Source of the DNA: Sporopachydermia quercuum
Lineage: Eukaryota
Direction of reading: 5' to 3'
NCBI GenBank assembly: GCA_001599295.1
Contig: BCGN01000004.1
Coordinates: 996,138 to 1,060,137 of the forward strand
DNA length: 64,000 nucleotides
Made by a program: the position numbers and the translations under genes. This document shows positions 1,922 through 53,271 of this stretch, one piece after another. The first letter of the stretch is position 1; each line of letters opens with the position of its first letter. A model generated the notes under the pieces. It was not told the DNA's origin and searched no databases. It saw nothing but the letters and a program-made list of their open reading frames with translations.

Positions 1922-4900
1922 TCATGGTCCAAGCCATCTTCTTGCTGATCTGAATAATCTTACCCATGGCCCAATTTCACCCCAAGCTTCACCTTCTTCC
2001 TTCGGATACCAAGAGTTAGCTTCTTTGTTTACCACTCTTTCTGGATGTGGCATCATGATTAGCACACGGCCATTAGGAGTACGGACACCAGTAATACCAT
2101 TAGGACTTCCGTTAGGATTGAAAGGATACTTTTCAGTAACCTTGCCATAGTTGTCAACATATCTTACTGACACCAAGTTTTCGGACAGAAGTTTCTTCAG
2201 TTTTTCTGGTGATGAGAATTTAGCACGACCTTCCCCATGAGCAACAGCAATTGGCAGTTTGGAACCTCTCATTCCATCCAAAAACACTGATGGAGTTTCA
2301 GCTTCATCAACAATTTCAACCATACAAACTCTAGCTTCGTATTGTTCAGAAATGTTTCGTTCAAATGATGGCCAAGTCTCACTACCAGGGATAATGCTGG
2401 TGAGTTTAGATAAAAACTGACAACCATTACAAGCTCCAAAGGCAAAAGTGTCTTCTCTTTCATTGAAAAAGTTGTAAAATTCATTATAAGCTTTCTCGTG
2501 CCATAAAACGGATTTGGCCCAACCAGATCCGGCCCCCAAAACATCACCATAAGAGAACCCACCACAAGCAGCTAAACCAATAAAATCTGTTAAAGAAACG
2601 TCTCCGCTCAAAATATCTGACATGTGGACATCAACAGCAGTGAATCCAGCTTGTTGGAATGAGTATGCCATTTCTTGTTGACCATTCACACCTTGTTCTC
2701 TCAGTATAGCAACCTTGGGTCTCTGTGTGATTGGTTGTTTTACTAGACTATCAGTTGGATTAAATGTCAATTTGTATGACAACCCAGGATCTTGATTGTC
2801 TTGAATGCTCAAAAATTCTTGATCGGCAGTCTTTGGATTATCTCTCAATTGTTGCATTTTATATGATGTTTCACCCCATGCTTGTTGCAGTTGAGCACGT
2901 GTCGAAGATATCACAACATCACCATTGAAAGAAACAGTAACAGTTTGTTCCTTGATTGAAGTAGTTAATCTTGAAACTGAACCAATTACTTTGACATGAG
3001 TTTCACCTACACCAAATCTAGCAAAGATAAGCGTGAGTTTCTCCAAGTTCTCTTCTTTCACTTGAAGTACACATCCTAATTCTTCGCTGAATAATTCAGT
3101 AATAATATCTTCTGTTGAGTTAATATCAACATCCAACCCAACTCTACCAGCAAAGGCCATTTCTAATAAAGTGACAATAAGGCCACCATCAGAAATATCG
3201 TGATAAGCCAATACAATTTCCTCATCAACAGAATGAAGGTATTGCAAAGCTAATAAAAGCCCTTTGAAAAGTTTGATGTCTCTAATAGTTGGTGCAGAAT
3301 TACCAACTTCTCCGTAGACTTGTGCAATGGCAGAACCACCTAATACTTTCTTTTGGCCCTGTTCGACCAAGTCAATATGAACTAAGACTGTTCGCTCATC
3401 ATTGGAGGATCTGGTCAGTTGAGGTGTCCAAGTCTTGTGAACATTATCAACAGGACCAAAAGCCGTGATGTTCAGTGATAAAGGAGATGTAACTTCCTTT
3501 GTATTGCCATTGGCATCATTCCATTTCATCTTCATAGACATAGAGTCCTTGCCAACGGGGATGCTGATACCAAGGGCAGGACATAAATCTAATCCAATAG
3601 CTTGAACAGCTTCATACAAAGCAGCACCTTCACCTTCATGACTAGCAGCACTCATCCAATTAGCGCTTAGTCTAACTCTCTCTAAATCGCAGATATTGGC
3701 AGCATAAAGGTTCATTAAAGATTCAGCAATTGCCATCTTAGCAGAAGCTTCGGCAGAAATTAAAGCCAAGTTAGGCTTTTCACCCATGGCCATTGCTTCA
3801 CCAGTAATAACACCTTCTCCTAAAGAGGTTCCTGTCACACCAACATCGGCTACAGGAACTTGCCATGGGCCTACCATTTGGTCACGATAGATGAGGCCAG
3901 TGACAGATCTGTCACCAATTGTGATCAAAAATGATTTAGAACCAACTCCTGGTAAATGCAATACACGATCAAGAGCCTCGGCAACTACGGTTCTAACTCT
4001 AGCTGGGTCTGCAGAAATTGTATCGTCGTCATTGGTGCCTGTTGATCCTTGTTCTGAATTATTAATATATGTAGTCAAAGATGAATCGAAAGGTTCTAAT
4101 CTTAAACGTTTAGTTGTAGCAGTTCTACTCATCTTAGGAGGTTTACCAAATAATTTAGACATTTCAATATCAATAGGTGTTGTTCCCAAGAGTCTATCAG
4201 TTAATATCAGTCTTTCTTCAGATGTGGCATGACCAACAACTGCAAAAATGGCTCTTTCTCTCTCGCAAATCTCCTTGAATGTATCAAGATCTTGGTGGGC
4301 AACTGCCATTACATATCTTTCTTGAGCTTCACAACACCAGATTTCCATTGGTGACATTCCAGGTTCAATACATGGTATGTCTCTTAGTTCGAACTTAGCA
4401 CCAAGTCCATTGTCATGAACGATTTCTGGTAAAGCATTAGACAAACCACCAGCACCAACGTCATGAATTGACTGAATAGGATTTTGGGAACCTAAGCTGA
4501 CGCACGCATCAATTACTTGTTGTGCTCTTCTCTGCATTTCAGGGTTTCCTCTTTGAACTGAAGCAAAATCTAATTCTGCGCTTCCTTCACCAGAAGAAAC
4601 AGACGATGCAGCACCACCACCCAAACCAATAAGCATGGAGGGTCCACCAAGAACAATTAAAGCAGCTCCAGGGGTTATTCTTCTATTTTTTAGTGCAAAC
4701 TGAGGTCTAATAGCACCCATACCACCAGCAAGCATAATAGGTTTATGGAACCCTCTGATTTCCGGTTTTCCTTCAGCGTTAACAACAGAAGTAGTTAAAG
4801 TACGGAAGTAACCTGCAATGCAAGGACGACCGAATTCGTTGTTGAAAGCAGCTGAACCAATAGGAGCTTCAATCATAATATCTAATGCTGATGAGATATG

Positions 4901-6118
4901 ACCTGGTTTACCAACATCTAATTCCCAAGGTTGTTTGAAGTCTGGGATTAATAAATCGGAGACAGCAAATCCTGCTAAACCAGCTTTTGATTTGGAGCCT
5001 CTTCCAACAGCACCTTCGTCTCGGATTTCACCGCCAGAACCGGTGGCAGCACCAGGGAAAGGAGAAACTGCAGTAGGATGGTTGTGAGTTTCGACTTTAG
5101 CTAAATAATGAACAATTTCCTTTTTCAGTAACCAAACTTTTGACTTTTGATCAGGTGCGTAGAAAAAAGCGTCAAATCCTTCTAATACAGCTGCGTTATC
5201 ACTATAAGCAGAAATTGTGTAGTTAGGATTGGTCTTATGTGTATTTCGAATCATTTGGAACAAACTGAAAGGTTTCTGTTCGCCATCGATCTTCCAGTCA
5301 GCATTGAAAATCTTATGACGGCAGTGTTCAGAATTCACTTGAGCAAACATAAACAGTTCAACATCTGTGGGGTTCTTATTAGCCTTTGTATATATATCTA
5401 AAAGATAATCAATTTCACCAGCATCCAAAGCCAATCCATAAGTAACATTAGCTTGCTCCAATTTCTCCTTTGCATTCTTAACTCCTAAAATTTGAATCTC
5501 ATTCAAAGGTTTAGGTGAATGTTTTTCAAATAAATCATTATAAGTAGGTGGATGTGCAAGAATGGTTTGAGTCATTCTATCAAAAATAGATTCCAATCCA
5601 ACCGATCCTGGATTTTTCAAGTAATCACTCATTGGAAATCCCTTTCTGACTTGGATCAAAACAACTAAACCCCGTTCAATCCTTTCAACAGATTCATCTA
5701 AACCGCAAACTTGGGCAATATTGGTAGCTTTAGATGACCAAGGTGAGATTGTTCCTTGTCTTGGAAATATTCTCAAAAGATACGTGTCTGGTTCAATAGT
5801 GACACTTTCAGGCTCAACGATAGCTTTGATTAATGTCTGATTGAGTGAATCACTTGAATCTACAGGTGAATCATAAATCAGCAGGGCATCTAACAATTTT
5901 CTAGCAAAATTTTCTTCGCTTGGTTCTCTTGTTAAAGGGTTTTCTTTTCCTTCTTTTGACTCTTTCAAAGCTACACAGTGAACGTATGCAGATTTGATCG
6001 AAGTAACCACAGAGGAGTTAACTGATTGATTAACTGAAGTAATCAAATTAGAAACTCTGAACGGTGACAAGGCAACAGGGCCTGGAAGCACCAACATTTG
6101 ACCGTCTGTTGTGCTCAT
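1922..6118 (-). CDS. ADE6: Phosphoribosylformylglycinamidine synthase (FGAM synthase, large PurL type)
   Basis: 1398 aa with AQVNSEHCRHKIF, KVETHNHPTA, GAATGSGGEIRDEGA, glutaminase-domain GACNGCQ and MMPHPER motifs. Confidence 0.98.
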   Translation of the reverse strand: MSTTDGQMLVLPGPVALSPFRVSNLITSVNQSVNSSVVTSIKSAYVHCVALKESKEGKENPLTREPSEENFARKLLDALLIYDSPVDSSDSLNQTLIKAIVEPESVTIEPDTYLLRIFPRQGTISPWSSKATNIAQVCGLDESVERIERGLVVLIQVRKGFPMSDYLKNPGSVGLESIFDRMTQTILAHPPTYNDLFEKHSPKPLNEIQILGVKNAKEKLEQANVTYGLALDAGEIDYLLDIYTKANKNPTDVELFMFAQVNSEHCRHKIFNADWKIDGEQKPFSLFQMIRNTHKTNPNYTISAYSDNAAVLEGFDAFFYAPDQKSKVWLLKKEIVHYLAKVETHNHPTAVSPFPGAATGSGGEIRDEGAVGRGSKSKAGLAGFAVSDLLIPDFKQPWELDVGKPGHISSALDIMIEAPIGSAAFNNEFGRPCIAGYFRTLTTSVVNAEGKPEIRGFHKPIMLAGGMGAIRPQFALKNRRITPGAALIVLGGPSMLIGLGGGAASSVSSGEGSAELDFASVQRGNPEMQRRAQQVIDACVSLGSQNPIQSIHDVGAGGLSNALPEIVHDNGLGAKFELRDIPCIEPGMSPMEIWCCEAQERYVMAVAHQDLDTFKEICERERAIFAVVGHATSEERLILTDRLLGTTPIDIEMSKLFGKPPKMSRTATTKRLRLEPFDSSLTTYINNSEQGSTGTNDDDTISADPARVRTVVAEALDRVLHLPGVGSKSFLITIGDRSVTGLIYRDQMVGPWQVPVADVGVTGTSLGEGVITGEAMAMGEKPNLALISAEASAKMAIAESLMNLYAANICDLERVRLSANWMSAASHEGEGAALYEAVQAIGLDLCPALGISIPVGKDSMSMKMKWNDANGNTKEVTSPLSLNITAFGPVDNVHKTWTPQLTRSSNDERTVLVHIDLVEQGQKKVLGGSAIAQVYGEVGNSAPTIRDIKLFKGLLLALQYLHSVDEEIVLAYHDISDGGLIVTLLEMAFAGRVGLDVDINSTEDIITELFSEELGCVLQVKEENLEKLTLIFARFGVGETHVKVIGSVSRLTTSIKEQTVTVSFNGDVVISSTRAQLQQAWGETSYKMQQLRDNPKTADQEFLSIQDNQDPGLSYKLTFNPTDSLVKQPITQRPKVAILREQGVNGQQEMAYSFQQAGFTAVDVHMSDILSGDVSLTDFIGLAACGGFSYGDVLGAGSGWAKSVLWHEKAYNEFYNFFNEREDTFAFGACNGCQFLSKLTSIIPGSETWPSFERNISEQYEARVCMVEIVDEAETPSVFLDGMRGSKLPIAVAHGEGRAKFSSPEKLKKLLSENLVSVRYVDNYGKVTEKYPFNPNGSPNGITGVRTPNGRVLIMMPHPERVVNKEANSWYPKEEGEAWGEIGPWVRLFRSARRWLGP

Positions 6119-32753: not shown

Positions 32754-34865
32754 ATGGAAAGACTTTCCCAGCTTGCCTCTCAAACTACAGCCTCCGCGCT
32801 ACCAATTGTTCATCCTTTGGACCCTCTTACTCCAGCTGAGCTTCAATTGGCTGTTAAGATCGTTAGGGGATACTTTTCTGGTAAAACTATTTCCTTCAAT
32901 GTTGTTACTCTGAAAGAGCCAAAGAAGGCTGAATATCTTGCGTGGGAGTCTAACCCTGCAACTGTTGCTACTCCTGCCAGAGAAGCTCATTTTGTTGTTT
33001 TGGAAAGTGGTGTTAACGGTGTTATTGAAGGTGATGTTACTTTATTCACTGCTAATGTTTACAATGTAAAGAAAGTCACAGGCATTCAACCTATCTTGAC
33101 TGTCGACGATCTAAGATCTACTGAAGAAGTCATCAGAAAGGATCCTAATGTTATTGAACAATGTATTCTTTCTGGTGTTCCAGCTGATGAAATCCATAAC
33201 GTCTACTGTGATCCTTGGACCATTGGTTACGATGAAAGATGGGGAACTGAAAGAAGATTACAACAAGCATTGATGTACTACAGAACAAATGAAGATGATT
33301 CTCAATACTCACATCCTTTAGATTTCTGCCCTATTGTTGATACTGAAACCAAAGAAGTTGTTTTCATTGATATTCCTCCTGTGAGAAGACCTTTAAGCAA
33401 AGCTCCTCACTCCAATTTCAATATCCCTGATATTAATAAAACCACTGGTTTCAGAGACAGTGGTAAGCCAATTAATGTTATTCAACCTGAAGGTGTTTCT
33501 TTCAAGATCACTGGTCGTATCATGGAATGGGAAAACTTTAAGTTCCATATTGGTTTCAACTACAGAGAAGGTATTGTGTTATCTAATATTTCATATAACG
33601 ACCACGGAAATGAAAGACCAATTTTCTATAGACTGTCCCTCGCCGAAATGGTGGTTCCATATGGTTCTCCTGATCACCCTCACCAAAGAAAGCATGCTTT
33701 CGATTTAGGTGAATATGGTGCTGGTTATATGACCAATCCTTTGACCCTTGGCTGTGATTGTAAGGGTGTAATTCATTACATGGATGGTGATTTTGTTGAT
33801 AGGGAAGGTAATATTATCACTACCAAGAATGCTATTTGCATTCACGAAGAAGATGATGGTATCTTATTCAAGCATTCTGATTTCAGAGATAACTTTGCTA
33901 CCTCCATTGTTACCAGAGGTACCAAGTTGATCATTTCTCAGATCTTTACTGCTGCTAACTACGAATATATGGTGTACTGGAACTTCCACCAAGATGGTAC
34001 TATCCAACTTGAAGTTAAGCTTACCGGTATTCTAAACACATATGTCTGCACTGATGATGAAGATCTTGGTGGATTCGGTACTAGAGTTTACCCTGGTGTC
34101 AATGCCCATAACCATCAACATTTGTTCTCTTTGAGAATCCATCCAAGAATTGATGGCGATGGTAATTCCGTTGCTACTGTTGATGCCGCCAGATCTCCTC
34201 TTCCCGTTGGACATCCTAATAACAAGTACGGCAATGCTTTCCTTCCTGATAGAAAGGTTTTGAAGACTGTAGGTGAATCTATTACTGATTACGATGGAGC
34301 TGTTGGAAGAACTTGGGATATATTCAATCCTAAGAAGCTTAACAAGTACTCTGGTAAGCCTGTTTCTTACAAGATTGTTTCTCGTGAATGCCCACCTTTA
34401 CTACCAAAAGAAGGCTCTTTGGTTTGGAAGAGAGCTGGTTTTGCTCGCCATCATATTCACGTTGTTCCATATAAAGATGGAAGAGTTTTCCCTGCTGGTG
34501 AATATGTTCCTCAAACTTCTGGTGAGCCATCAAGAGGTCTTCCTGAATGGCTTGGTGATGGTACCGAGTCAGTTGATGACTCTGACATCATTGTTTATCA
34601 CACTTTCGGTATTACCCATTTCCCTGCTCCTGAGGATTTCCCAGTCATGCCTGCAGAACCTATCAGCTTATTATTGAGACCTAGAAATTTCTTCTTACAA
34701 AATCCTGCTTTAGATGTCAAGCCAAGTTATAACTGCACTACCAGTCAAGCCAGAATTGCTACTAGTAACGCAGAAAAGAAGAGTTTGACTGACAGTATTT
34801 CTAGATTAGCTTTCAGTGAGACTAGTGCTCCTGCCGCATCTGGATCATGCTGCAGTAAGAAATAA
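32754..34865 (+). CDS. AMO1: Copper-containing (TPQ) primary amine oxidase, probably peroxisomal
   Basis: HPLDPLT, TPQ motif TAANYEY, copper ligands AHNHQH and HFPAPEDFPVMP, and PTS2-like N-terminus MERLSQLASQT. Confidence 0.95.
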   Translation: MERLSQLASQTTASALPIVHPLDPLTPAELQLAVKIVRGYFSGKTISFNVVTLKEPKKAEYLAWESNPATVATPAREAHFVVLESGVNGVIEGDVTLFTANVYNVKKVTGIQPILTVDDLRSTEEVIRKDPNVIEQCILSGVPADEIHNVYCDPWTIGYDERWGTERRLQQALMYYRTNEDDSQYSHPLDFCPIVDTETKEVVFIDIPPVRRPLSKAPHSNFNIPDINKTTGFRDSGKPINVIQPEGVSFKITGRIMEWENFKFHIGFNYREGIVLSNISYNDHGNERPIFYRLSLAEMVVPYGSPDHPHQRKHAFDLGEYGAGYMTNPLTLGCDCKGVIHYMDGDFVDREGNIITTKNAICIHEEDDGILFKHSDFRDNFATSIVTRGTKLIISQIFTAANYEYMVYWNFHQDGTIQLEVKLTGILNTYVCTDDEDLGGFGTRVYPGVNAHNHQHLFSLRIHPRIDGDGNSVATVDAARSPLPVGHPNNKYGNAFLPDRKVLKTVGESITDYDGAVGRTWDIFNPKKLNKYSGKPVSYKIVSRECPPLLPKEGSLVWKRAGFARHHIHVVPYKDGRVFPAGEYVPQTSGEPSRGLPEWLGDGTESVDDSDIIVYHTFGITHFPAPEDFPVMPAEPISLLLRPRNFFLQNPALDVKPSYNCTTSQARIATSNAEKKSLTDSISRLAFSETSAPAASGSCCSKK

Positions 34866-39516: not shown

Positions 39517-40705
39517 TTATTTGACAAGGGCAGCAAGAGCCTCCAAAACTTCAACTTCAATAGCAGCTTCGGCAGCGACAGTTTCGTCAGATGATGCTGC
39601 ATTCTTTTGAGCTTCTGCCAAGTTTGCCTTCACATATTCAGGAGAGAAGTTGTCTAAGGGGAAAGCTTCAATAGTGGTGATGTTCAAGTGAGAGTTAGGT
39701 TGAACGGTAGCGAAACCACCAGAGACTATACGAAAAAAAAAAAGATAAACTGTTAGTACTTGTTCTGGTGCAGTAAACTATTGATCGATTAGGGATAAAC
39801 ATACTGAAATATTGCTTGGTGGTACCAGCGGATTCAATAATTTCAACTAAACCAGGCTTCAATTCTTCAACGGTAGGAACGTGGTTAGCCAAAACACCGA
39901 GATCACCAGAAGCAGCGGGAAGGTTGACTTGTAAACTATTCTATTGTTAGTAAAATTATTGTCCGTGATTCCCTGATAATTCCTGTAGATTCCGTTCAAC
40001 ACATCAATATATCAATTGATCAACCAATCAATCTCCAAGTTTCACCCTGAGAATTTAAATAGTTGGGACACCATATGCTAATGCTAGACTAGAATCTATT
40101 TGATCACCGCTTCCTCATTATTGACTATCTACGTTTCATATTGATTGACAAGTTTGTCTGATATATATTATCGTCATGCATAGCTACTTCTTATTCACAA
40201 CTGATTCATTTCAACTCTTGACTGGACTTACACTTCAGTGTTGGTGTACAATGTCTATAGTTAAATATTAGTAACTCGTTTTCATAACCTTTAACAAACG
40301 GGATCATCATGCTCTTTAGACGTAGTACGCAACTGATGGATATCATCGCCAATCATAGCAAAACTCAACCGGCATTCAATCTTAATAATTGAAAGTCCTG
40401 TTCGCGTCTGACTACAATTTTCCTATCGCTTTCTCATATTGGTTAACTACCGCATCTCACATATTCTCCAGGGAGAAAACGTCACTTTGATTCACACAAA
40501 CTTGACATAACACCGACCACATCTCAATCCAAAGAACACAAAACAAGTAGTAAATCAAATCAATTCATACATCGTGAGGTAAAGCAAATGACAAAGTAAG
40601 CTTGTCGGCAGCAGCAGCTTCAGCGTAACCTCTTCTCAACACAGTTGAGGCAGCTCTGGTAGAAGCTCTCAATGAGCTAGTAGCAGCATATCTGAACAAT
40701 GACAT
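39517..40705 (-). CDS. ATP16: Mitochondrial F1 ATP synthase delta subunit; exons 40705-40571, 40254-40232, 39935-39805 and 39725-39517 (165 aa)
   Basis: Presequence ...RRGYAEAAAADKLTLSFALPHD, then TLYTNTEV LQVNLPAASGDLGVLANHVP...YF ISGGFATVQP. Donors GTATGA, GTAAGT and GTATGT; branches TACTAAT and TACTAAC. Exons sum to 498 nt in frame. Confidence 0.95.
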
Positions 40706-41319: not shown

Positions 41320-42450
41320 ATGGCGCCTAGCAATAAATCAGGCGCTTTAAGCACATCTGTATTGGCAGGTAATGCCGAATCTTTGATTATAAATAGGAAC
41401 AAAGCTATTCCCGATGAACTAAACCGAACGTTGGATCAAGTATATGTAGCCATAGGGCGAGCGTTAGATGATATTTCGGTGAACAGATATTCTCACATAG
41501 AAGTGCCCAACCAACCAAAGAATAAACTACAGAGCCAAGTAAATGAGTGCATGGTGAAGTTAAACTCAATATTTGATAGCGTTGAATTCAATCTAGACTT
41601 TGTTAAAAATGAGGTAAAACTCGACATAAGAAATGCAATATCCAAAGCCAAAGCTGCTGAAAAGGTTCAGGAATCCATTAATACTATAAATACTAATGGA
41701 CAAAATCACCTCAATTTGACAAATAATATTACCAATTCCACAGTTCAACAGAATAAAGATATAAATTTCAAACATACGGAGGCTTTAAGCATAAAACAAG
41801 AGAATGAAGATGGACTGAATGATTATAGAAATCAGCTATATCTTGACGATTTCCAAAGTGATGACTTGCTAGGTTTCAATCCCAGTGAGGATCCATTACT
41901 TAATTTCAATTCCCCGATTTTCAATAATATGGAAGATCAGTTGAGTGTTGACGCTCTAGAAAACCAGGATCTAAAATCAACCATGAATGACACGTCAGAT
42001 ATCAACGCTAGCAACGAAAGCAGTGACAGCAAATCATCAACTATAAAAGATGAGGGAAAAATCAGTAGTAATCCTATTTCCCGCACAGATGCCAATAACG
42101 ATTATCTTATAATGTCGCAACCGAACCCCGATACACAAATCATAGTGGACGAAAATGATAATGAAACCGCGCACTCCAACAATGATCTTGAAGACTTATT
42201 TGGACCGGAAGAAGCAGACAGGAAAGATGATGAAACCTTTGCTCTAACGTCGAAGAACGTTGATATGGACAGTAATTTAACTTCTTTTCTACAATCAGGT
42301 AGTTTATCGGCAGGTTTCTTCAATGACCAGAATTTTGACTATGATCCAGGCAATACTAATGATAATGGTGGTAAGAATGAGAACATAGATGAAAATGGGC
42401 TTCAAATGTCAGAATTTGATGACTTTAATTTCATGACGGATAGCTTGTAA
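41320..42450 (+). CDS. Hypothetical protein with helical N-terminus and N/D-rich acidic tail (possibly Mediator Med2-like)
   Basis: 376-aa ATG ORF. Architecture resembles yeast Med2, but the family is not confidently recognised. Confidence 0.75.
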   Translation: MAPSNKSGALSTSVLAGNAESLIINRNKAIPDELNRTLDQVYVAIGRALDDISVNRYSHIEVPNQPKNKLQSQVNECMVKLNSIFDSVEFNLDFVKNEVKLDIRNAISKAKAAEKVQESINTINTNGQNHLNLTNNITNSTVQQNKDINFKHTEALSIKQENEDGLNDYRNQLYLDDFQSDDLLGFNPSEDPLLNFNSPIFNNMEDQLSVDALENQDLKSTMNDTSDINASNESSDSKSSTIKDEGKISSNPISRTDANNDYLIMSQPNPDTQIIVDENDNETAHSNNDLEDLFGPEEADRKDDETFALTSKNVDMDSNLTSFLQSGSLSAGFFNDQNFDYDPGNTNDNGGKNENIDENGLQMSEFDDFNFMTDSL

Positions 42451-42887
42451 TTTAGTAATAGTAGTTCAATGATAGCTATGAAATCTATCAAAATCGATTG
42501 AATGATTTGTAAGAGAGAGCGCAATCTTTCAGCATGATGAGATTTCATTTACTACTGTTAGTAGAGAATGAATTGATATTGTTCGTGACAAGACAAATGT
42601 TGTCCGATTCAAAAACAAACTGTATAATATTCGGGCAATATTAACCTAATCTAATAATTATCCGTAAATGACCTCTTTAGTATGTAAAATCAAGGTGAGT
42701 AATCACACAACAAATAAACAAGTGCATACAACGCAATAGAAACTACATAGCTAACCAATGCAACAAACCTAATAATCAACAACAATAAACACACTCAACA
42801 AACAACAAAGCAATTCGAACAACTTACAAATTAAAGCAAGAAATTAATATTTTCAATGATCACAAAATACACCAACCGTAAGACTTT

Positions 42888-45800
42888 TTATATATAGACC
42901 ATGATATCACGAATATTCGCATGAATGCCTGACCCAAGCATTTCTAAACTAGCCTCTTTAGGGTCTTTCCTGATATCCTAATCACATCCAGCGATATAAT
43001 GTCTACCTCTGGTGCATAATAAATCAGCATAGTACGCAGGAGGAACAATTTTTAACTGGGTGGCACGAGAGAAAATATAACATAAGTTATTGGTCAAGCG
43101 TTGAATCATGTCAGCCGTGGATCCGTTATCATCAGCAAGAACATAATAATGTCCAGGAATACCTGTATCTTTCAATGCCTGTTGGGTTTGTAAATAGAAG
43201 TCCCATGCAGCAACTGACGTAATTCCTTTATCAGTGACAGTACCAGGAATAACATTGTCAAAAGACTGAGCGGCAATAGTTTGTCCCTGTTTATCGGTTA
43301 CATTATCCACTAAAGGATAGAATCTAGTATGATGCCGTTTAACAATAATAACGTAAGTGACTTTGGGGTTAAAATCTTGGATCTGGAGCTTCTTCAAGGC
43401 AAAGTCTTTCAACCCCTTCTTAACTGAAGGAATTTCCTCTTTCATCAGAGTAGGAAATTGCCCTTCAGAGACACCATCACGGTACATAACAACTCTTGAG
43501 GGTAATTTACCAACTTTTTTATAAAATGTAGCTAAACGCTCTTCAACTAGTAGATCCATATCTGCAATTACTTCTGTACGTGAGTCTTGAATGGCAATTC
43601 CACCAGGAAAATTGTTGAGCTTAGAGTCAACCTAACCAACTACACCAGCGACTGAAGGCATTGGAGATCCAGGACTTGGATGTATAACATCAGCACCAAG
43701 AACAAAGACTGGAACTCTTTTACTATCATAAAGTAAGTTAGAGTCATTTCCCGATAACACGTGATTGACACCACCAAGCTTCAAGTTAACTTTCATAGAA
43801 GCATTTGAGAAGTATGCACTGTCAAAACTGCTTCCCTTCCTTTTGGTAAATTTACGATAAATAACACAAGAAGATAGGATACCGAATCTCAAATCAACTA
43901 GACATTTGACTAATCCATATAATAATCTATTTTCTCTAGGTAGTACCACTAGGACATAGGAGCAACGATCCTTTTTAATGGCTTCCAAAGCTCAGATCAA
44001 GGATTGCTCAGTAAAATCGGTGTTTGATTCATAATGAATATCATAAATCTTAGGAGTTCCAAATCTTATACTATGACCTTCTACTTGACGAGTGGAAGCA
44101 GCGACCGCATCTTGAATTTGGTTGAAGTCCATTCTTGAGTCCAAAATTGGTAGCACAGCAAGTCTTCTGGTAGCTCTTCCTGCTTCTACATATTGTAAAC
44201 GCATCAAGTTCCAAGATTCCTTGGATCTTTCTGACCTACCATCTAAGGGTTTTGGTTGATATTCAATAGTGCTGTTCTTGCAATGAACAATAGGTGCATC
44301 CAAAATACGAGCTGGTACGGTCATGAGTTTGGTTCCCACCCGGGGATTACTTTCGAACCTGAAAACCTTAGTAATGTTTTCTTTTTGAATTAAGCCCGCG
44401 TTTTCAGCAGGAGATCAACAAGTGTAATCCAGCATTGCCTTCGTGTCATAGAATTCGCCAGTGTAAGCTTGTCCCGGGATGACCAAAGCCAATTCAGGAG
44501 GTAAGTAAGTATCACCACCCATATGAATTAATGGTAAATGGGGATACTTCAATCTAAGCTTCCATCTGATATCAAAATATTGAGTAATATTAATAGTTTT
44601 ACCTTCAAATTCAAAAGTCTTTTCGTTAGCACTTTCACGAACAAAATCGGTGATAGATTTTGGTGCGAACTTAGGAATATGAGATCTAGTAAACCGTAAT
44701 CCTTTGAAGAAAGATTTAACACTGTAAACCTTTCCGGCGTCAACATCTCGTAAATCAGATCCCAAATAATCAGCCAATAATTCAGCGACAGACATAGGAC
44801 TTCCATCTGGGTTATGCGCTTTATAAAATGGTGTTGCTGCAACATTGACATTGATAAGAACTCTATCAAAAGTAGTTCGTACGGATAAGAAGTAACCAGT
44901 GCAAAGATACAATCCTTTCTGGAAAGCGGTTTCAGGTTTAGCTTTATCAACAATATAATACTTGTTTCTTCCAATACTGTAAATTTCTGGCCTTTTTGAT
45001 GTAGAAAAGCCCAACAAAAAAGCTAAAGCGTTAGTATAAGGAGCAGGGTCGAGGTCGTATTCATTAGGAGATGTCAACTTAACATGATCAATCAAATGAT
45101 CCATGCCATATAATGCTTGAGGAAGGATATCAAGATATAAAGGTTCTGACTTTTTGGCACCTGCTGGTTCTGAAGGTGCTTCAGAAGTTCCTTCCNCCGG
45201 CGGATTCACTTCTTCCTTGGTTCCTTTCGTCATCATTACTCTTAGACCTTTTATGAGGTCAATTGGCAATTCACGAGCACTATAAATGGTATCGGCATTA
45301 TTATGAGCCAAGAACCTAACGAGATCAGAGAAGGGCTTCTTGGTAAATAATTCACCAATCAACCTAGTTTAAGCTTTCTCTTTGTTTGCATTTGAACAGG
45401 AAACTCAACGAAGTATGTCCAGATTTTTAGTTTCTTAACATCAAAGTTAAGATAATTGGTACCAATTCTCGTTTCAATACCGTCTTTTCCATATCCAGGT
45501 CTGAGATGAATAACGGATGAGGTAATAACCTTTTTGACTTCTTGAATTGCCCCAGTGCTATCAGGAGCAGGAATACTAGTGTCAAAATTAGATCGAAAAT
45601 CAATTCGTCGTGGTACAATAGTTGATCCTCCAAAGCCATCAAAGCCACCTCTACTGCCTCTTGTCCTCCTCTAAAATCACCTCTTCCACCTCTTCCAAAG
45701 TCGCATCTTCCATATCTATCCCTACCACCACGTTCACTACGAGGGTAATCACTTTGACCTCTTTCCTCGCGTCTCTGTCTGGGATATCCGGAGATTCCAC

Positions 45801-45912
45801 CTGTTGAAGGTTAGTTACAAAGGAGTTCAGTTCAATTGCTAATATCAAATCCCGAACAAAAGTTCGGTTCAATTGTTAATAACATACCCCTAGAATTCCT
45901 TCTGAATGACAT
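42888..45912 (-). pseudogene. AGO1: Argonaute (RNAi effector) pseudogene, about 979 codons when repaired
   Basis: ATG at 45912; intron 45887-45801; RGG-rich N-terminus; RPGYGKDG..IGTNY; PAZ YF...WKLRLKYPHLP...LPPEL; MID/PIWI KVNLKLGGVNH, LGADVIHPSP, YRDGVSEGQF, VKRHHTRFYP and PPAYYADL; C-terminus IHANIRDIMVYI* at 42888. Lesions: 1-nt frameshifts at ~45662 and ~45366; stops TGA 44415, TGA 43992, TAG 43632 and TAG 42978. Confidence 0.95.
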
Positions 45913-47104
45913 TGCTCTTTAGCAGTGAAAAAAAAGTAATATTGCACAATTCAGATTGTGATACCTGATATTGAGAGTGATAGTTCCAAGTATGCACTCA
46001 GTGTAATAGAAAGCAATGAGTTAACTTGACATGCTTTAATTTCTCCTGAGCAAATCACTTCGTTTATTGGTCGTACACTCGAACACTAGCATAGTTAATA
46101 CAATCCTACTCTTACTAGATATATATCCAACCGAGAATCGTACAAAATGAAGAGACTTAACACTGCGTCTTTCATATTTTTTGCTTACTGTCTTTTCGTT
46201 TCTTTCCAACCAGCAGAATTGACGGTATCACATTAATGAACAATTGGGCAAATGTAGCAGATCAGAGATGTATACCTTATGTTTACGGGAACTTATCTCA
46301 ATTAGGCTACTTTACGGGTTCTTTATATCAGTTGGATTTACCTGAACTGTAAGGAGATGCAATGATGATCAATTGATCAGTTATGGCAGCGAGGAGGTAG
46401 TTAATGCCTATTGTAGAAATAAGGAAGAGATGTAATGATATGCATAAGTCTCGGCGCATAATAACCATTGACGTTGTATGGGTTGATAGGTAGGTGTGAT
46501 AAAGGAAGAAACCATTAGAAAGATAGTAAGCAGTGATATAAAACATACATCTGCCTGTATAAACATAAAAAAAGCACCTCCCAGTTTCGATAGCCGCTTA
46601 CAGAACAAGTTATACGAAGGGTGGGAAAACTAATTACCTACGAATCAAGAAACTTAAGGGCATATTTTCTTCCATCTTTGAATTAGCATCAAAATGTGTT
46701 GAGATGTGGTACTTTACTTTGCTTTTCAGACAATAAAAGTAAAATCAAAGTGATGTTGAGTCCTTTCACATGCTTTTCCATATATTGGACACAATACTAA
46801 TGATTTCAAAATACAAAATCTGATAACGGATTTGTATTAAGAAATTACCTGTTTTGAATTTACTTTTACAATCATGATTGTATTCCAACCACTCGAACCA
46901 TGGATCTGTTAAAATAAATTATTGTAGCTAGTGATATGTTCTAGTTTACCTTTGACCTATACTTACTAGTAAACGAGGAGTTGGATGATATTAGAAAATA
47001 TTGGGCTGGGGAATGCTATTGAGTTCTAAAGGTTATAAATTAAAGAAGAATTGAAGCTTTCACTTTAGACCTCGAAAGATAGAAGTTAACGTAGGAAAAG
47101 AGAT

Positions 47105-48047
47105 ATGTTGCGAATAACTAGTACAGTGTTGGTAGGATTCTTGACACTTGCTAAAATAGCCAGTTCTGAAGAGCTGAATCCTTTGGTTGTTCTGAGAATA
47201 GGTCCACTCTGTGTATTTTAAGACCGTTTTTGTTTTAAATCTCGCGGGCAATGATAGAACTAATATGATTCTATAGGAGAATGATGACTATCTGCAATGT
47301 CACAATTCAGCCCTCGAATTGTTGCTACAATGTGAAAGCACAGACAGCATCTGCCAATGTCACCAAGTTGAAAACATAAGAACCAGGTGCTTGGACCAAT
47401 GTCCATCATATGTAAGCAAACAGAATATCACCATAAATTTCCGTATTAATTTGTTGTAGATTTACAAAACTGACTAAAGAAAGAATGTTGACACTTTGTA
47501 TGCATTAAACGCTGTATGCAATGAAGAAGCTGAGGGAGCTCATATCATTGGCTTTGATACTTCCATTGAAGTTCTGTTTGACTATTTGACAAATGATGAA
47601 GATTATGATAAAATGAAGTACACTGAGAATATGATCATGCAAGCCATCGATTCTTCAGAAGAACGCCAAGAATCAAAAATAGAGCTTGAACAATTAATTC
47701 CTGGTTCTGACTCCGAAATATCAAATTACGCCTTACCTCTAGAAGCTCTTGAAATCAGCAAGAACTCAACTCTAAGTTCCGAAGAAACATCTTTTCGTCA
47801 GGAAAGTAACTCAAAAGAATCTTACTCTCCGTCAGTGACTGTTACTTCAACTCCAAATGCGACAAATATTGCATCTCATGGGTTCAGACAGAATGACAAC
47901 AATAAAGAATTCCATACTGAAACCGATGAATGGGATTCTGGAACATCAGTTATCAATGTTTCTTATAACTTAATCCTCATTTCATGTATTATATGGGCTG
48001 TCTTAACATTTATCCTTGTACAAGTATTTGGACAAATGAGTAATTAA
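47105..48047 (+). CDS. CFEM-like 8-Cys secreted, membrane- or GPI-anchored protein; predicted exons 47105-47212, 47277-47411 and 47484-48047
   Basis: Signal peptide MLRITSTVLVGFLTLAKIASS. The spliced Cys pattern is PLC-x7-C-x10-C-ESTDSI-CQC-x9-C-x3-C-x14-C, followed by an S/T-rich stalk and a hydrophobic C-terminus. Two splice sites are weak (GTATTT donor, AAG acceptor). Confidence 0.65.
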
Positions 48048-51000
48048 GTTTACAATCATCACCAGGTACAGAATATTCTTCCATAATCTTTCTTGGTGAA
48101 AGATGGAGACAAAGTAGTTAGTAACTTTCATAGGTACTCTTGTTTATTCATCTATTCAGAATACTCAGAAAAATTGTGTTTTCTATGATTAGCTAAATAT
48201 GGCAATAAAAAAATGCATTATCACCTAAAATTCAGCAATATACTGAAATATAGGAACTGCTAAAATCGTAAGTCTACAGGATCATTGCCTATGGATATTT
48301 CTATTAAGCAACAATCGCATTATGGAACTCCGCAAAATGTCGAATGTATATCTAAGTGTTTGATAGGAAAGTGTTTGCAATATATCTAACGGAGACAGCT
48401 AGTCGTTTCCTTGCATCCTTAACTAAGAGAGGGAATGAATGCGAGGTAACAAACAATTGGTGAACCAAGTATATTGTTGATCAATTGATATTGGGTTTAT
48501 TTGATACACAATCACTATAAATGTCATTTAATGTGTATTTTTTCTTCTCTAGTCTTTTTGTTCCTCTTTGTTTTTCTGTATAACTATAGGTACATGTCTA
48601 GTAAGCCGTATCAGATCTGGCTCTCTGAAAACCGAAAGGGAGCAGCAGGAACACTTTGAAATGTCCGAGTTTGGATCATCTGGAAGGGGTTAAACGCCAG
48701 CCACACCACATATTCATATATACCTACTTTGGGTACGGTTACGAGATTTTACGAACTACAAATTAGTGAACCCTTTTGGTGAAAGCCGAACATTTTGTCT
48801 TATTCCATGGACTATTCCTAACAACATTTATTGTGAACTTGTTCATAGTTTGTTCCATATATGATCTATATAAATATGTTAGTGCATCGCATTCGATCTT
48901 TTCTATATTCAGGAACATACTTTCACGAAAGTCATGACATGATGAAACAACAATGAAACAAGACAAATCGGTGAAACACAAACTAAGACATTGCAACGAT
49001 GTTTAAGGTTAGCTTTCAATATTTGGAATATTTGCCCTATTTAGGAATACAAAGCAATGAATTAATACTATTTTGTATTTAGATTATGAGTTAAATTAAC
49101 CCTAATATAGAGGCAGAGCTCGAATGTCTCGATTTGGTTCAATTGCCACTTATGGAAGACTCTCCGAAAGATCTGAAAAATCAAGTTTACTATTAAAGAA
49201 GAACACATAATCAAACAGATGATTATGCAGCATTTTGATTTAAAAATACGAGTTTCATTGAAATGAATTACGATCAGGAGTGAAACAATGAGCTTTTGTA
49301 CCGAACATATCAAATTCAATCACCATCGGCAACAATTCATTACCTCGGTCGCTTGAGAATCCAATGGCTATGATTTCTTCAAGCTGAAATGTTTGCCTCA
49401 AATACTTTTCTTTAAAGGGTCAAGTTTATTCATACACAGACAGTGTGGTTCGTTCTAATTAACGCTCTAATTCCATTCTGTAACCGGTTTAACTTTGGAC
49501 TCCAGTATCAACCCTGACATTATTATTCGGCTTTGGTAACATTCTGACATGACTCATAATGATTCATTGAGATCAGTAAATTATTCAAAACTACTCGTCC
49601 TTGTAACTATGGGTGCTTTCATATGGACATTAACAATGATAACAATGATCTAGGAATCAAAAGCTCTTACCTGAAATTGCAAACATTCTCCCATGAAACA
49701 AGGTTCGAAGAACAGAAAGAGAGGAAAGTAGATGCTCAATGCTAGGGATAGTACAGTTGAGAATCAAGAGGAGTGTTTGATTGGTTTGACATTTCCCGCT
49801 GATTACTACTTGTGATACTAAGCAGAAAGGAGAAAAAATAAAGGTGGTACTGATAATCATAAAAACAGGAGAATAATGACAATATCATAGCCTAAGCCAT
49901 ATTGAGATGGTAGTCACTTAGTCTGTATCTGAATTCTATTAGTGGAGAAGAAGTTTTCTCTCTATTTATGATTATATAATATGAAATGAAACCTGACATT
50001 ATTGACTCGGATTAACTTTCAACCTTTTTGTTCCTGAATTTTCTTTGACCATTGTAATTTCAAGATTTCGAGGGAATAGAGAGAGAAAACTTGCAATAAA
50101 AGAGTTGTCATTGTAAGTCCTGAAACAGATATAATGCTTTGCTTCTACTAAGTATTAAAATGTAATATTTGAGCTTCCAAAATGTATTGAAGCGTTGATT
50201 ATAGAATTAAACATCGGTAACTACGTCTAAGATTTAGTCGATGGAGACTCATTGTAGTACTATCCATATAAATATTGTACAGGGATCTCCTCCTGCCACA
50301 CTTAGTGAAACAAACAATCCGAGACTATTTACAGCAGATTAGAGCTATTAGCTGCCAAAACTTGATAATGCTGAAGTCGGAACAATACAAATAAAAAATT
50401 AGTCTACTGTTACTATTAGTTAATGCAACTGCTGTTCTAAATCTTAAGAATAGAACAATGCATGTTTCTTTCCTGTCAGAAACCATGATCCAAGAACAGG
50501 CGTCAGAACTTCAGTACCAAACACTCAAATTTACTTACATAATGCCATCCCTCTGATTGAATGACTTAAATCAAAGCAAAGTGAAGAAAATACAATTGTT
50601 TCAGGTAGGTAGCAGCGAATTACATTAAATATTGTACAATGAAGTTGTAAATGAATCTATGATTCACTTCCTTGTACTCTTATTCCTTATTATAGTAAAG
50701 AAATTCGTTATGATTTATTCCTAGAATACTCTCTCTCTTTTTCATTAAAGCAAATAAGAATTACATTCAGCTTTTCGTTTACCGATAAACTAGTTCCATA
50801 CCATCAATAGTTCAACACTTCCCTATCTTTTGATTCACTAAACAACGTTTTGTTGACTGTCAACTATTTTAAGTTAAGAAGAAAGTCCTTTTTATAGCCT
50901 CTGAGGTTAAGACTAACCGTGTAAAGCTAATTTCTCATTCTATTGTATGCAATGATAGAGTATTGTGTCAAAGTTTCCTTTTGTCATGACATTGTATATA

Positions 51001-51438
51001 ATCACAGAGTTGATTAGTACAAAATAAGCTTTACCATTTAATTTTCCCAATACAGGTTTTCGTCTTCAATAATGAATGGACCTTCTCATGATTTGCGATT
51101 GAAATGTAATGGGCCTGGATTCATACAATCAATTATTTTTCTTTCTTACCATTTGTTTTGTTCACTTTCAACATGAACAGGTCTATTTTTATGAACAAAC
51201 ATCGCTAGATTGATAAGATACACTGCAACCTTTCGTACTTTTTCTCCTTGTCAGAAGTTACCCATAGAAAACAAAGGAAAAGTGACAAGAAGCTCATTAT
51301 TGGATAAAGCAGAATCAATCAAAACGACTAAAGTTCAGTTTTTTGACAGCTTAGATGTCATAAATCGTACGTGAGGATCTCGTATGGGTAGGGTATCAAA
51401 GTTTTTGAGTTCTTATGTACTAGTAGTATAGATACAAT

Positions 51439-53271
51439 ATGGCTGGAACAGCTCAATCATCCGGGTATACTGAGAGCTCACCAGATGGAACGGATGCAAA
51501 TCAATCGGTAAGCGACGCTAGTAGCCAAGCGTTAGAGCATAATGATAGCAACAAAAGTGAAGAGGTTTCAACGCCGTCTTCTGGGACAAAACCTAGTGGT
51601 AAGGGTCACTTTAGCGGATCGGGCTTTACACAAGCTATTAGACAAAAACTTCGGTTTGATGATGAAGCGACATGGAGAAGATTTTCAGCAAGACGGCTGG
51701 AATTGATTGACAAATATTCTTTAGCAACAAGAAAAGGTTCAGAACAATATAACGAGATTCGAACAGTAGCTGAAATGTTGAGACAAGAGTACGGATACAC
51801 AAAGGAAACCATCTTTGATTTCGATAAGTTGGTGCTGGCAGGGATTCAATCGGTAAGAAGAAATAGGAAAAGGCCAAATAAATCACGGAAGGAAAATCAA
51901 AAGTTTATCAATACGAATAACTCCACCAAGTTTATCAGCTATGATGCATCAGCGCCCATGATGAAGCAAAAGTCTAGTAAAAGTAGTACTGATGATGATG
52001 ATCCTGAAGGGTTCTCCTTGAAGAGAGCTAAATTTGGCCTAGTTAATAATTCAGCATCAAGCGACCAACCATTATCTTATAATCCCTTCATGACTTATAT
52101 TCCTTCTCAACCTTTCCTTCCCCCAGTGACGCAACCTCAACCAATTGGTTCAATGTCTCAATCTATACCTCCTCAAACGCAAATGGCTCCAGCTGGGCTT
52201 CCAAGCTTACCTATTTACAATGTATCACATGGGCTTGCGTCCGTTCCAGGACAATTCATATTACCACAAAACACAACATCCTATTCCATATTGTCCACTC
52301 CAACGTCTTCAGGAGTTTCTTCTAATGAAGCAGATGTGGATGTATTCATCAAGTACCTAATACAGCACAGTGCTTTCTTTCCTCCAGAAATCAAGAGCCA
52401 GTTTGCTGAATCTTGCACGAAATCTCAAAGCATCAAACAATTATTAGATCATCGCAAAGTAAACGAAGGAATATCTGGCAGAAGGGTTTTTGAAGCTGAA
52501 TTGATTGCATTGAAAGATGTAGGCTCCCATATCTGGGCGGCGTCAATGATTCTGGCTATCAATGAATACCGTAAAGTGAATGAGAAACTGGCGCCTGTGG
52601 ACTTTGAAAGGATAAGTTTTCTAGTGTTCAGGAGTTTCAATAACAATAAGTTTTCACAATTTGTCTTTGAAGAGCTTGAAATTGAATTTCTAAAAAATAA
52701 TTTACTTTTGTCCAAGAACTCTTTCATGGTGAAAGAATATCTTAATGGTAATGTCGGACTTTTTCTCCATGTAATAATTGGGGCTTTGTTCAAAGACGAG
52801 CTAATCGCATATGAGCTATGTCGACGATTTGCTACAGCATCGGTAGATAAGGCAGTGGCACGATGCATTGAGATTTGTAGGGAGGTTGGATCGGTTGATA
52901 TTTCAAAGCTTTTACCTCCTCCTCCATCAATCCCTTCGACATCGCCCAATCCAATGGTGAAACCAGTGACGTTAAGGTTTGTCAATTCGCAGTTGAATTT
53001 CACATTTAATGCTGAAGCTAATAGTCCCCCGACTATGACTGAGCTTATAGAGAATGGGAAGACGGCATTCCATATTGTGGATACAAAGATTTTGAAACTT
53101 AGGGATATGTCAAATAATCAGATACTGGCATCCGATCAAGAACTCGAATTAGTTTTCAAGAATCAAGATAACATCAATCTAGAGCTGTTGAAAACCCACC
53201 CATCTCTTCCTGCTCCATTACCATTACCCCCAATTAGAGGCTCTAATGGGACTTTCCACAAACTGCTATGA
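51439..53271 (+). CDS. VHR1: Vhr1-family transcription factor
   Basis: G.TQAIRQKLRFDDEATWRRFSARRLELIDKY.L..RK.SEQ...FDKLV.AGIQSVRRNRKR Vhr1 domain. Confidence 0.85.
   Translation: MAGTAQSSGYTESSPDGTDANQSVSDASSQALEHNDSNKSEEVSTPSSGTKPSGKGHFSGSGFTQAIRQKLRFDDEATWRRFSARRLELIDKYSLATRKGSEQYNEIRTVAEMLRQEYGYTKETIFDFDKLVLAGIQSVRRNRKRPNKSRKENQKFINTNNSTKFISYDASAPMMKQKSSKSSTDDDDPEGFSLKRAKFGLVNNSASSDQPLSYNPFMTYIPSQPFLPPVTQPQPIGSMSQSIPPQTQMAPAGLPSLPIYNVSHGLASVPGQFILPQNTTSYSILSTPTSSGVSSNEADVDVFIKYLIQHSAFFPPEIKSQFAESCTKSQSIKQLLDHRKVNEGISGRRVFEAELIALKDVGSHIWAASMILAINEYRKVNEKLAPVDFERISFLVFRSFNNNKFSQFVFEELEIEFLKNNLLLSKNSFMVKEYLNGNVGLFLHVIIGALFKDELIAYELCRRFATASVDKAVARCIEICREVGSVDISKLLPPPPSIPSTSPNPMVKPVTLRFVNSQLNFTFNAEANSPPTMTELIENGKTAFHIVDTKILKLRDMSNNQILASDQELELVFKNQDNINLELLKTHPSLPAPLPLPPIRGSNGTFHKLL

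What the first reader, a model, noticed from the sequence alone, without database searches (positions are those of the whole stretch)
42888..45912. Full-length Argonaute pseudogene: RNAi loss (or paralog death) caught in progress in a budding yeast
Seen in sequence: the four Ago fragments in the ORF track (44415-45362, 43992-44339, 43632-43988, 42978-43559) share one frame and are separated only by single stop codons (DYTC*SP, SLI*ALE, VVG*VDS, GCD*DIR). Reading through the last stop gives a canonical Ago end, IHANIRDIMVYI* at 42888. Upstream, two 1-nt deletions (~45662, ~45366) join an RGG-rich N-terminus and the RPGYG..TNY motif, and a clean intron (45887-45801) links to ATG 45912. Established: RNAi was lost repeatedly in Saccharomycotina, and loss is compatible with maintaining dsRNA killer viruses. 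Inference: this is a recent inactivation, a snapshot of pathway loss, unless a functional paralog exists elsewhere.
Basis: partly seen in the sequence, partly recalled or inferred. Interest (0 to 1): 0.85.

Follow-up and report, generated by a model that had tools for sequence, protein, structure and literature searches.

The report
Dead Argonaute gene in a budding yeast
A budding yeast carries a full-length but clearly broken copy of Argonaute, the core RNA-interference protein, so it may be a lineage that lost RNA interference fairly recently.

Summary
On the minus strand, 42888-45912 is a complete, single-intron Argonaute locus. It has an RGG-rich N-terminus, ArgoL1, PAZ and Piwi domains (Piwi E 3.6e-65) and the usual ...MVYI end. 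It is broken by four in-frame stops (TGA, TGA, TAG, TAG) and two net -1 frameshifts. An invariant Piwi motif has also lost a codon.

The lesions are not assembly errors. Contigs built independently from runs of two studies match the window with 0 differences over 3401 bases. The 17 neighbouring ORFs (10,497 codons) have no internal stop and use all three stop codons as terminators.

The gene sits in a fully supported clade of budding-yeast Argonautes. Its closest intact relative is only 45% identical.

Decay looks young. All four catalytic codons survive, and every fragment keeps normal similarity to intact homologues. Four stops imply roughly 3-5% neutral change, with wide error.

No genome is held, so I could not test whether this is loss of the whole RNAi pathway or the death of one paralogue. 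No copy at 80% or more nucleotide identity appeared in the contigs I laid. RNAi loss in yeasts is well known, so this adds a pseudogene relic to a known pattern. Interest is moderate.

The parts
45888..45912 (-). Exon 1: ATG (45910-45912) plus 8 codons and 1 base, encoding MSFRRNSR(G)
   Evidence: The N-terminus resembles those of P0002, P0003 and P0006.
45801..45887 (-). 87-nt intron: 5' GTATGT, branch-like AACTAAC at 45810-45816, 3' CAG. It holds a 15-nt near-repeat 37 nt apart. One contig (run X3) lacks 37 nt here (45840-45876).
   Evidence: ATP16 introns in the same window use the same signals.
45664..45800 (-). Start of exon 2: RGG-rich N-terminal region, in phase with exon 1
45650..45670 (-). 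Frameshift 1 (net -1 nt) inside the RGG repeat run. The exact base cannot be fixed in this low-complexity sequence.
45365..45663 (-). Second-frame segment: end of the RGG run and the start of the N domain (RPGYG...TNY...KRKLKL)
45362..45368 (-). Frameshift 2 (net -1 nt). It is bounded by TAA 45369-45371 in the downstream frame and TGA 45359-45361 in the upstream frame.
44820..44966 (-). ArgoL1 domain
   Evidence: P0001 residues 133-181, E 1.1e-10.
44451..44720 (-). PAZ domain
   Evidence: residues 215-304, E 5.6e-12.
44415..44417 (-). In-frame stop 1 (TGA). It aligns with Arg in 3 of the 6 homologues that have a residue there.
43992..43994 (-). In-frame stop 2 (TGA), at a variable column
42993..43955 (-). 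Piwi domain, interrupted by stop 3. The codons of all four catalytic residues are intact: D 43689-43691, E 43572-43574, D 43476-43478, D 43023-43025.
   Evidence: residues 470-790, E 3.6e-65. Alignment to KpAGO 4f1n. Coordinates.
43632..43634 (-). In-frame stop 3 (TAG), at a Ser that 7 of 7 aligned homologues keep (VVGS)
43041..43070 (-). Damaged invariant Piwi motif RAT[KR]xV. The window reads RATQ-L, with one codon missing plus two substitutions.
   Evidence: 0 of 120 homologues have a gap there, Val is present in 120 of 120, and K or R in 119 of 120.
42978..42980 (-). In-frame stop 4 (TAG), 29 codons before the natural end
42888..42890 (-). Natural stop (TAA) after the conserved end ...IRDIMVYI
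45196..45196 (.). A single N in the assembly, inside a variable linker codon (GNG, so it cannot be a stop)

Best explanation
This is a non-processed pseudogene of a budding-yeast AGO1-type Argonaute. It still sits at what looks like its original chromosomal site, between ATP16 plus an unassigned ORF on one side and a gene-poor stretch on the other.

The gene once encoded about 975 residues: an RGG-rich N-terminus, then N, L1, PAZ, L2, MID and Piwi. It can no longer give a full-length protein. After splicing, translation from ATG 45912 leaves the Argonaute frame at the first frameshift and ends after 132 codons. Further down lie a second frameshift and four stops. So no slicer with both PAZ and Piwi can be made from this locus, and any transcript should be a nonsense-mediated-decay substrate (inference).

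Inactivation is evolutionarily young (inference). The intron signals, all four catalytic codons and normal similarity in every fragment survive. The lesion load corresponds to a few percent of neutral change.

Whether the organism has lost RNAi as a whole depends on genes outside the window and is not shown here.
For: - **Family identity.** Pfam finds Piwi, PAZ and ArgoL1. The best solved relative is KpAGO 4f1n, E 3.3e-110. 2803 of 7999 scored candidates match at E <= 0.001, the best being P0002 at 45% identity over 98% of the query.
- **Clade.** In a 121-sequence tree the window groups with the 6 yeast Argonautes, support 1.0. These include [Candida] arabinofermentans and the C. tropicalis cluster.
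- **Lesions in the sequence.** Four stops and two frameshifts.
- **Lesions are real.** Contigs of X1 (study P1) and X2 (study P2) cover 42700-46100 with 0 other letters and 0 gaps. X3 differs only by a 37-nt skip inside the intron.
- **Local control.** 17 neighbouring ORFs with 10,497 codons have no internal stop. They end in TAA 9 times, TAG 5 times and TGA 3 times. 15 of 18 long ORFs carry ordinary Pfam families without breaks.
- **Relaxed constraint.** A codon is lost in a motif that 0 of 120 homologues gap, next to a Val kept in 120 of 120. The Thr of GADVTHP is replaced by Ile.
- **Youth.** Similarity to four intact yeast homologues is kept in all 8 segments, broadly at the level of the intact P0002-P0003 pair (somewhat lower in the N-terminal segments). 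The catalytic D, E, D, D codons are present. The four stops imply about 81-129 substitutions, or 3.3-5.2% of 2472 nt, with 95% limits of 0.9-13.3%.
- **Non-processed.** The intron is retained, with the same signals as the ATP16 introns.
Against: - With non-yeast outgroups the window's protein is not faster than P0003, P0004 or P0006. It leads only against P0002 (75:66, 78:57, 94:54, 87:70; one of these four is significant). Protein-level decay beyond the lesions is therefore not demonstrated.
- It deviates at 20 of 131 highly conserved columns. Five of the six other yeast Argonautes show 16-22 of about 130 (P0052, a gapped model, more), so this is not exceptional.
- The two run sets may come from one strain, and one of them may be the window's own source. 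The lesions are confirmed as sequence but not as fixed in the species.
- Contigs drop rare variants, so a second allele cannot be fully excluded.
- No RNA data were available.
Confidence: 0.92

Rival explanations
1. Dead duplicate only. The genome keeps an intact, divergent Argonaute (and Dicer) elsewhere, so RNAi still works and this locus is an ordinary paralogue loss.
For: Some yeasts keep two Argonaute copies, namely N. dairenensis and T. blattae (passages of PMC4629796). I could not search this genome. Its proteins are absent from the collection, so says nothing about paralogues.
Against: With likeness set down to 80%, only one contig per run was laid on the locus in X1, X2 and X3. No close second copy is seen, though the tool warns that a filter drops some contigs. 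The locus has an intron, its own start and unique flanks, and no repeats nearby, so it does not look like a recent dispersed copy. The window holds no second Argonaute hit.
Confidence: 0.3
2. Strain-private or segregating null allele. The sequenced strain carries a dead allele while other strains of the species keep a working Argonaute.
For: The three runs that hold the stretch carry one organism label across two samples and two studies. The two samples are identical over 3401 bases, so they may be the same strain. The window has 25 scattered single Ns and one run shows a 37-nt intron variant, which hints at allelic variation.
Against: Seven or more independent lesions in one gene mean long neutral evolution, about 1% or more. 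That is more than usual within-species divergence for a private allele (inference). Only one N lies in the locus and it is not at a lesion.
Confidence: 0.15
3. Assembly or sequencing artefact in an intact gene.
For: The assembly has ambiguous bases, 25 Ns in 64 kb.
Against: Contigs rebuilt from runs of two studies (2016 and 2023) are identical to the window at every lesion. Four of the lesions are substitutions rather than homopolymer indels. 10,497 neighbouring codons carry no such error.
Confidence: 0.02
4. Functional gene read by recoding, through stop read-through, an altered genetic code or programmed frameshifts.
For: None beyond the fact that the frame is otherwise well kept.
Against: Two different stop codons and two frameshifts would all need recoding. 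TAG ends 5 and TGA ends 3 of the 17 neighbouring ORFs, and neither occurs inside them. CTG sits at Leu columns (8 of 12 ADE6 CTG codons lie where at least 50 of 60 homologues have Leu), so at that codon the code looks standard. An invariant Piwi motif is damaged.
Confidence: 0.01

Closest known systems
Budding-yeast Argonaute AGO1 (KpAGO of Vanderwaltozyma polyspora, PDB 4f1n; N. castellii and C. albicans AGO1)
   Same: It has the same family and domain order, an RGG-rich N-terminus like P0002, P0003 and P0006, and the C-terminal ...YI. The catalytic D, E, D, D positions align. It falls in the yeast Argonaute clade with support 1.0.
   Different: It is not an open gene: four stops, two frameshifts and a damaged RAT[KR]xV motif. 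It is only 45% identical to the nearest intact protein. It comes from a lineage with no close sequenced relative in the collection, with ADE6 at 70% identity at best.
Repeated RNAi loss in Saccharomycetaceae (Wolfe et al. 2015, PMC4629796; Dujon and Louis 2017, PMC5499181)
   Same: It fits the patchy distribution of Argonaute and Dicer. Five losses are inferred in that family, and S. uvarum and C. castellii keep Dicer without Argonaute (passages read).
   Different: Those passages describe gene presence or absence. The passages I read do not mention an Argonaute pseudogene. Here the relic is still readable end to end, and the best ADE6 hits suggest a yeast outside Saccharomycetaceae.
AGO1 pseudogenes of RNAi-deficient Leishmania (Lye et al. 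2010, PMC2965760)
   Same: An Argonaute relic is left at its locus after loss of RNAi (passage read).
   Different: The Leishmania relics are described as remnant and highly degenerate. This one has few lesions and intact catalytic codons.
RNAi gene-network loss in Cryptococcus deuterogattii (Feretzaki et al. 2016, PMC4778953)
   Same: A recent loss of RNAi components, seen as pseudogenes within a yeast lineage (passages read).
   Different: There AGO1 and AGO2 are deleted, and DCR1 and RDP1 are truncated by deletions. Here Argonaute is broken by point lesions, and the state of the other components is unknown.

Membership tests
Eukaryotic Argonaute (AGO clade) | Piwi (RNase H-like) domain | tested here: met
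   PF02171 E 3.6e-65, covering profile positions 2-301 of 302.
Eukaryotic Argonaute (AGO clade) | PAZ domain and linker L1 | tested here: met
   PF02170 E 5.6e-12 and PF08699 E 1.1e-10.
Eukaryotic Argonaute (AGO clade) | N, L2 and MID regions recognisable | tested here: inconclusive
   No Pfam hit to the ArgoN, ArgoL2 or ArgoMid models. The intact best homologue P0002 also lists only ArgoL1, PAZ and Piwi. The regions align along their whole length with intact yeast proteins.
Eukaryotic Argonaute (AGO clade) | Catalytic tetrad (D, E, D, D/H) of slicer-competent members | tested here: met
   The window's D, E, D, D align with the KpAGO residues in GSDV, GEEI, FRDG and YYAD (coordinates). That these are the catalytic residues of KpAGO is recalled, not taken from a call.
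Eukaryotic Argonaute (AGO clade) | Uninterrupted reading frame, meaning a functional member | tested here: not met
   Four in-frame stops and two frameshifts, confirmed in independent contigs.
Budding-yeast AGO1 clade | Groups with Saccharomycotina Argonautes in a tree | tested here: met
   A 7-member clade with support 1.0 among 121 sequences. The sister pairing with P0002 is unsupported (0.0).
Non-processed (unitary or duplicated) pseudogene | Intron and native flanks retained, with no poly-A or retro-copy signs | tested here: met
   An 87-nt intron with GTATGT, AACTAAC and CAG. No repeats in the 5.6 kb upstream.
RNAi-deficient yeast lineage | No intact Argonaute and no Dicer (DCR1-type RNase III) anywhere in the genome, and no siRNAs | not testable with these tools
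   No genome is held. The organism is absent from the protein collection. No RNA run is listed.

The most novel reading that the evidence does not exclude
This may be the only Argonaute of an isolated, intron-rich budding-yeast lineage, caught shortly after RNAi was switched off. The Dicer-type RNase III and other partners may still be intact.

That would make a natural 'just lost' state, in which the order of gene loss can be read directly. The proposed trade-off between RNAi and dsRNA killer viruses could also be tested in a species outside Saccharomycetaceae.
Probability: 0.45. Interest if true: 0.6.

Novelty: new member of a known kind. Interest (0 to 1): 0.4.

Why it matters
RNAi has been lost many times in budding yeasts, but the passages I read describe those losses as gene presence or absence. 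A relic that is still readable end to end dates a loss and marks a lineage to examine. Three things could be checked there: whether Dicer outlives Argonaute, as in S. uvarum and C. castellii; whether transposons or dsRNA viruses have expanded; and whether other strains still carry a working allele. It also warns annotators that this genome's Argonaute hits are fragments of one dead gene, not four small genes.

Tried and rejected
- **Whole-genome search for paralogues and Dicer.** No genome is held for this window.
- **Exact look-up of six window proteins.** None is in the collection. The ADE6 search found no hit above 70% identity, so neither the organism nor a close relative is there. The Argonaute search therefore says nothing about paralogues in this genome.
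- **Expression.** No RNA holder is listed.
- **Run X4** (another organism of study P1): nothing was laid.
- **Relative-rate tests.** With yeast outgroups the window looked faster than P0002: 142:80, 102:73 and 113:65. The branching order among these yeasts is unresolved, so those outgroups are unsafe. With non-yeast outgroups the excess mostly disappears, and I treat the test as inconclusive.
- **Deviation at conserved columns.** 20 of 131, which is not exceptional among yeast Argonautes.
- **A second decayed gene, such as Dicer, next to AGO.** Pfam on six read-through frames of 45913-51438 gave no family above threshold, only DUF420 at E 0.027. Of 44 short ORFs elsewhere, only 4 had hits: ATG16, DUF2462 and two ATP16 exons.
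- **Other scans.** Rfam gave 0 matches in the window. There are no tRNAs. There are no repeats in 45900-51500.
- **Earlier findings of this scan.** Three look-ups found nothing.
- **RIP-like mutation.** I considered and rejected this by inspection. The homologue residues at stop 3 (Ser) and stop 2 (Gly/Glu/Asn/Ser) would need a transversion, not the C-to-T pattern.
- **Papers.** Drinnenberg et al. 2009 and 2011 are not held. What I say of them comes from citing papers or from recall.
- **Prior reports.** A phrase search for 'Argonaute pseudogene', 'AGO1 pseudogene', 'pseudogenized Argonaute' and 'Argonaute pseudogenes' found 3 papers, none on yeasts. Wider term searches turned up no report of a budding-yeast Argonaute pseudogene. 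These searches are narrow, and subscription papers are not covered.

Full report
**What is there**

On the minus strand a single frame runs from 45362 to 42888. It contains exactly four internal stops and then a terminal TAA at 42888-42890:
- TGA 44415-44417
- TGA 43992-43994
- TAG 43632-43634
- TAG 42978-42980

Read through with X at the stops, the 824-residue product (P0001) matches Pfam Piwi (E 3.6e-65, nearly the whole profile), PAZ (5.6e-12) and ArgoL1 (1.1e-10).

Upstream the homologous reading continues in two other frames:
- An RGG-rich stretch is in phase with a short first exon.
- A net -1 shift follows, somewhere in about 45650-45670.
- A segment then reads '...RPGYGKDGIETRIGTNY...KRKLKL'.
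- A second net -1 shift lies within 45362-45368.

tblastn with the best homologue shows the same frame change and no other Argonaute-like hit in the 64-kb window.

The 87-nt intron (45801-45887) has GTATGT, AACTAAC and CAG. It joins ATG 45910-45912 in phase. The spliced N-terminus MSFRRNSRGG resembles those of three intact yeast homologues, and the C-terminus ...IRDIMVYI matches theirs.

**Are the lesions real?**

Three public runs hold the stretch, from two samples and two studies, all labelled as one organism. Contigs assembled from those runs were laid on 42700-46100.
- X1 and X2 each cover it in one piece, with 0 other letters and 0 gaps.
- X3 is from the same sample as X2. It differs only by a 37-nt skip inside the intron, between two copies of a 15-nt near-repeat.

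One of the studies may be the window's own source, and both samples may be the same strain. This shows the sequence is right, not that it is fixed in the species.

There is also a local control. 17 neighbouring ORFs totalling 10,497 codons have no internal stop, and they end in TAA (9), TAG (5) and TGA (3). 15 of 18 long ORFs carry ordinary, unbroken Pfam families such as ADE6, ERG6, copper amine oxidase, YVC1, Rad21, VHR1, SUR7 and IML2. Both TAG and TGA are therefore true terminators here. CTG codons sit at conserved Leu columns: 8 of 12 in ADE6 lie where at least 50 of 60 homologues have Leu, and one lies at a Ser-majority column. That rules out a recoding explanation.

**What it was**

The closest solved structure by sequence is KpAGO (4f1n, E 3.3e-110). 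The window keeps D, E, D, D at the positions that align with GSDV, GEEI, FRDG and YYAD of KpAGO. That these four are the catalytic tetrad is recalled.

In the large protein collection, 2803 of 7999 scored candidates match:
- The best is an unnamed 968-residue protein, P0002, at 45% identity over 98% of the query.
- Next is [Candida] arabinofermentans at 39%.
- Then comes a cluster that includes a C. tropicalis Argonaute.

In a tree of the window plus the 120 listed hits, the window falls in a 7-member yeast clade with support 1.0. Its pairing with P0002 has no support.

The host is a budding yeast with no close sequenced relative in the collection. Its intronless ADE6 finds at best 69-70% identity (unnamed records), then Wickerhamomyces at 67-68%, and many other Saccharomycotina at 61-66%. 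P0002 is therefore an orthologue or relative in another species, not a copy in this genome (inference).

**How broken, and for how long?**

After splicing, translation from the ATG leaves the Argonaute frame at the first shift and stops after 132 codons (counted). No protein with PAZ and Piwi together can be made.

Beyond the six lesions, an invariant Piwi motif is damaged. Where 120 of 120 homologues have Val, 119 of 120 have K or R, and 0 of 120 have a gap, the window reads RATQ-L and has lost a codon. The Thr of GADVTHP is Ile.

Other evidence points to light decay:
- All four catalytic codons are intact.
- Each of the 8 segments between lesions keeps similarity to intact yeast Argonautes, broadly at the level of the intact P0002-P0003 pair, though somewhat lower in the N-terminal segments.
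- Deviation at highly conserved columns is 20 of 131. Five of the six other yeast Argonautes show 16-22 of about 130; P0052, a gapped model, shows more.
- With non-yeast outgroups the window is not faster than P0003, P0004 or P0006. It is only mildly faster than P0002, significant with one of four outgroups. The larger excess seen with yeast outgroups is unsafe because the branching order is unresolved.

About 3.1-5.0% of random point changes in this sequence create a stop. Four stops therefore correspond to roughly 81-129 substitutions, or 3.3-5.2% of 2472 nt, with 95% limits of about 0.9-13.3%. I read this as a young pseudogene. That reading is an inference from few events.

**What it means**

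The passages I read establish that Argonaute and Dicer are patchily distributed in budding yeasts. Five RNAi losses are inferred in Saccharomycetaceae alone. Two species keep Dicer without Argonaute, and two keep two Argonaute copies (PMC4629796; PMC5499181). The link to dsRNA killer viruses is cited there from Drinnenberg et al. 2011, which I could not read.

Argonaute relics after RNAi loss are described in Leishmania as highly degenerate (PMC2965760). RNAi genes are truncated or deleted in Cryptococcus deuterogattii (PMC4778953). I found no report of a budding-yeast Argonaute pseudogene in a phrase search (3 papers, none on yeasts) or in the wider term searches. Those searches are narrow.

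**What stays open**

The central claim, pathway loss rather than death of one copy, could not be tested.
- No genome is held.
- The organism's proteins are not in the collection.
- No RNA run is listed.

The only relevant datum is that, with likeness lowered to 80%, one contig per run lay on the locus. A recent duplicate is therefore unlikely (with the tool's caveat about filtered contigs).

No second decayed gene is detectable beside the locus.

**Verdict**

This is a real, well-preserved Argonaute pseudogene. It adds a member to a known kind of event. I put about even odds on it marking a recent loss of RNAi in this lineage.

Noticed in passing
window, 25 positions (6873, 7683, 8075, 12086, 19012, 20259, 20557, 20608, 21159, 21517, 24258, 24498, 26551, 28092, 30616, 31007, 31365, 31553, 35464, 35529, 40926, 45196, 55357, 57391, 57430): Single Ns are scattered through the window at about 1 per 2.5 kb. 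They may be ambiguous or heterozygous base calls of a diploid strain. Only one lies in the Argonaute locus, and it is not at a lesion.
   Followed up: partly
window 45840-45876 (inside the AGO intron): One contig (run X3, same sample as X2) skips 37 nt between two copies of CAATTGAAC[C/T]GAAC, while X1 and X2 carry the full form. This is either an allelic indel or an assembly collapse.
   Followed up: partly
window 39517-40705 (-): ATP16 (F1 delta subunit; Pfam hits on two exons) appears to be split by three introns with GTATGA, GTAAGT and GTATGT 5' sites and TACTAAC-type branch sites. One exon is only 23 nt long (40232-40254), read by eye. The yeast seems relatively intron-rich.
   Followed up: partly
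window 45913-51438: The 5.5 kb upstream of the Argonaute start is unusually gene-poor. It holds one 183-residue ORF with a hydrophobic C-terminus (47496-48047) and no Pfam family. There are no repeats, no Rfam hit and no Pfam domain in six read-through frames.
   Followed up: partly
window 41320-42450 (+): A 376-residue Asn/Asp/Ser-rich ORF lies between ATP16 and the Argonaute 3' end, convergent with the latter. It has no Pfam family.
   Followed up: no
window 1922-6118 (-) and the whole window: CTG codons lie at conserved Leu columns, so the yeast is not in a CUG-Ser or CUG-Ala clade. A copper amine oxidase (32754-34865) and a MoCF_biosynth-domain (molybdopterin-binding) gene at the window's end (63497 onward) are also present.
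   Followed up: partly
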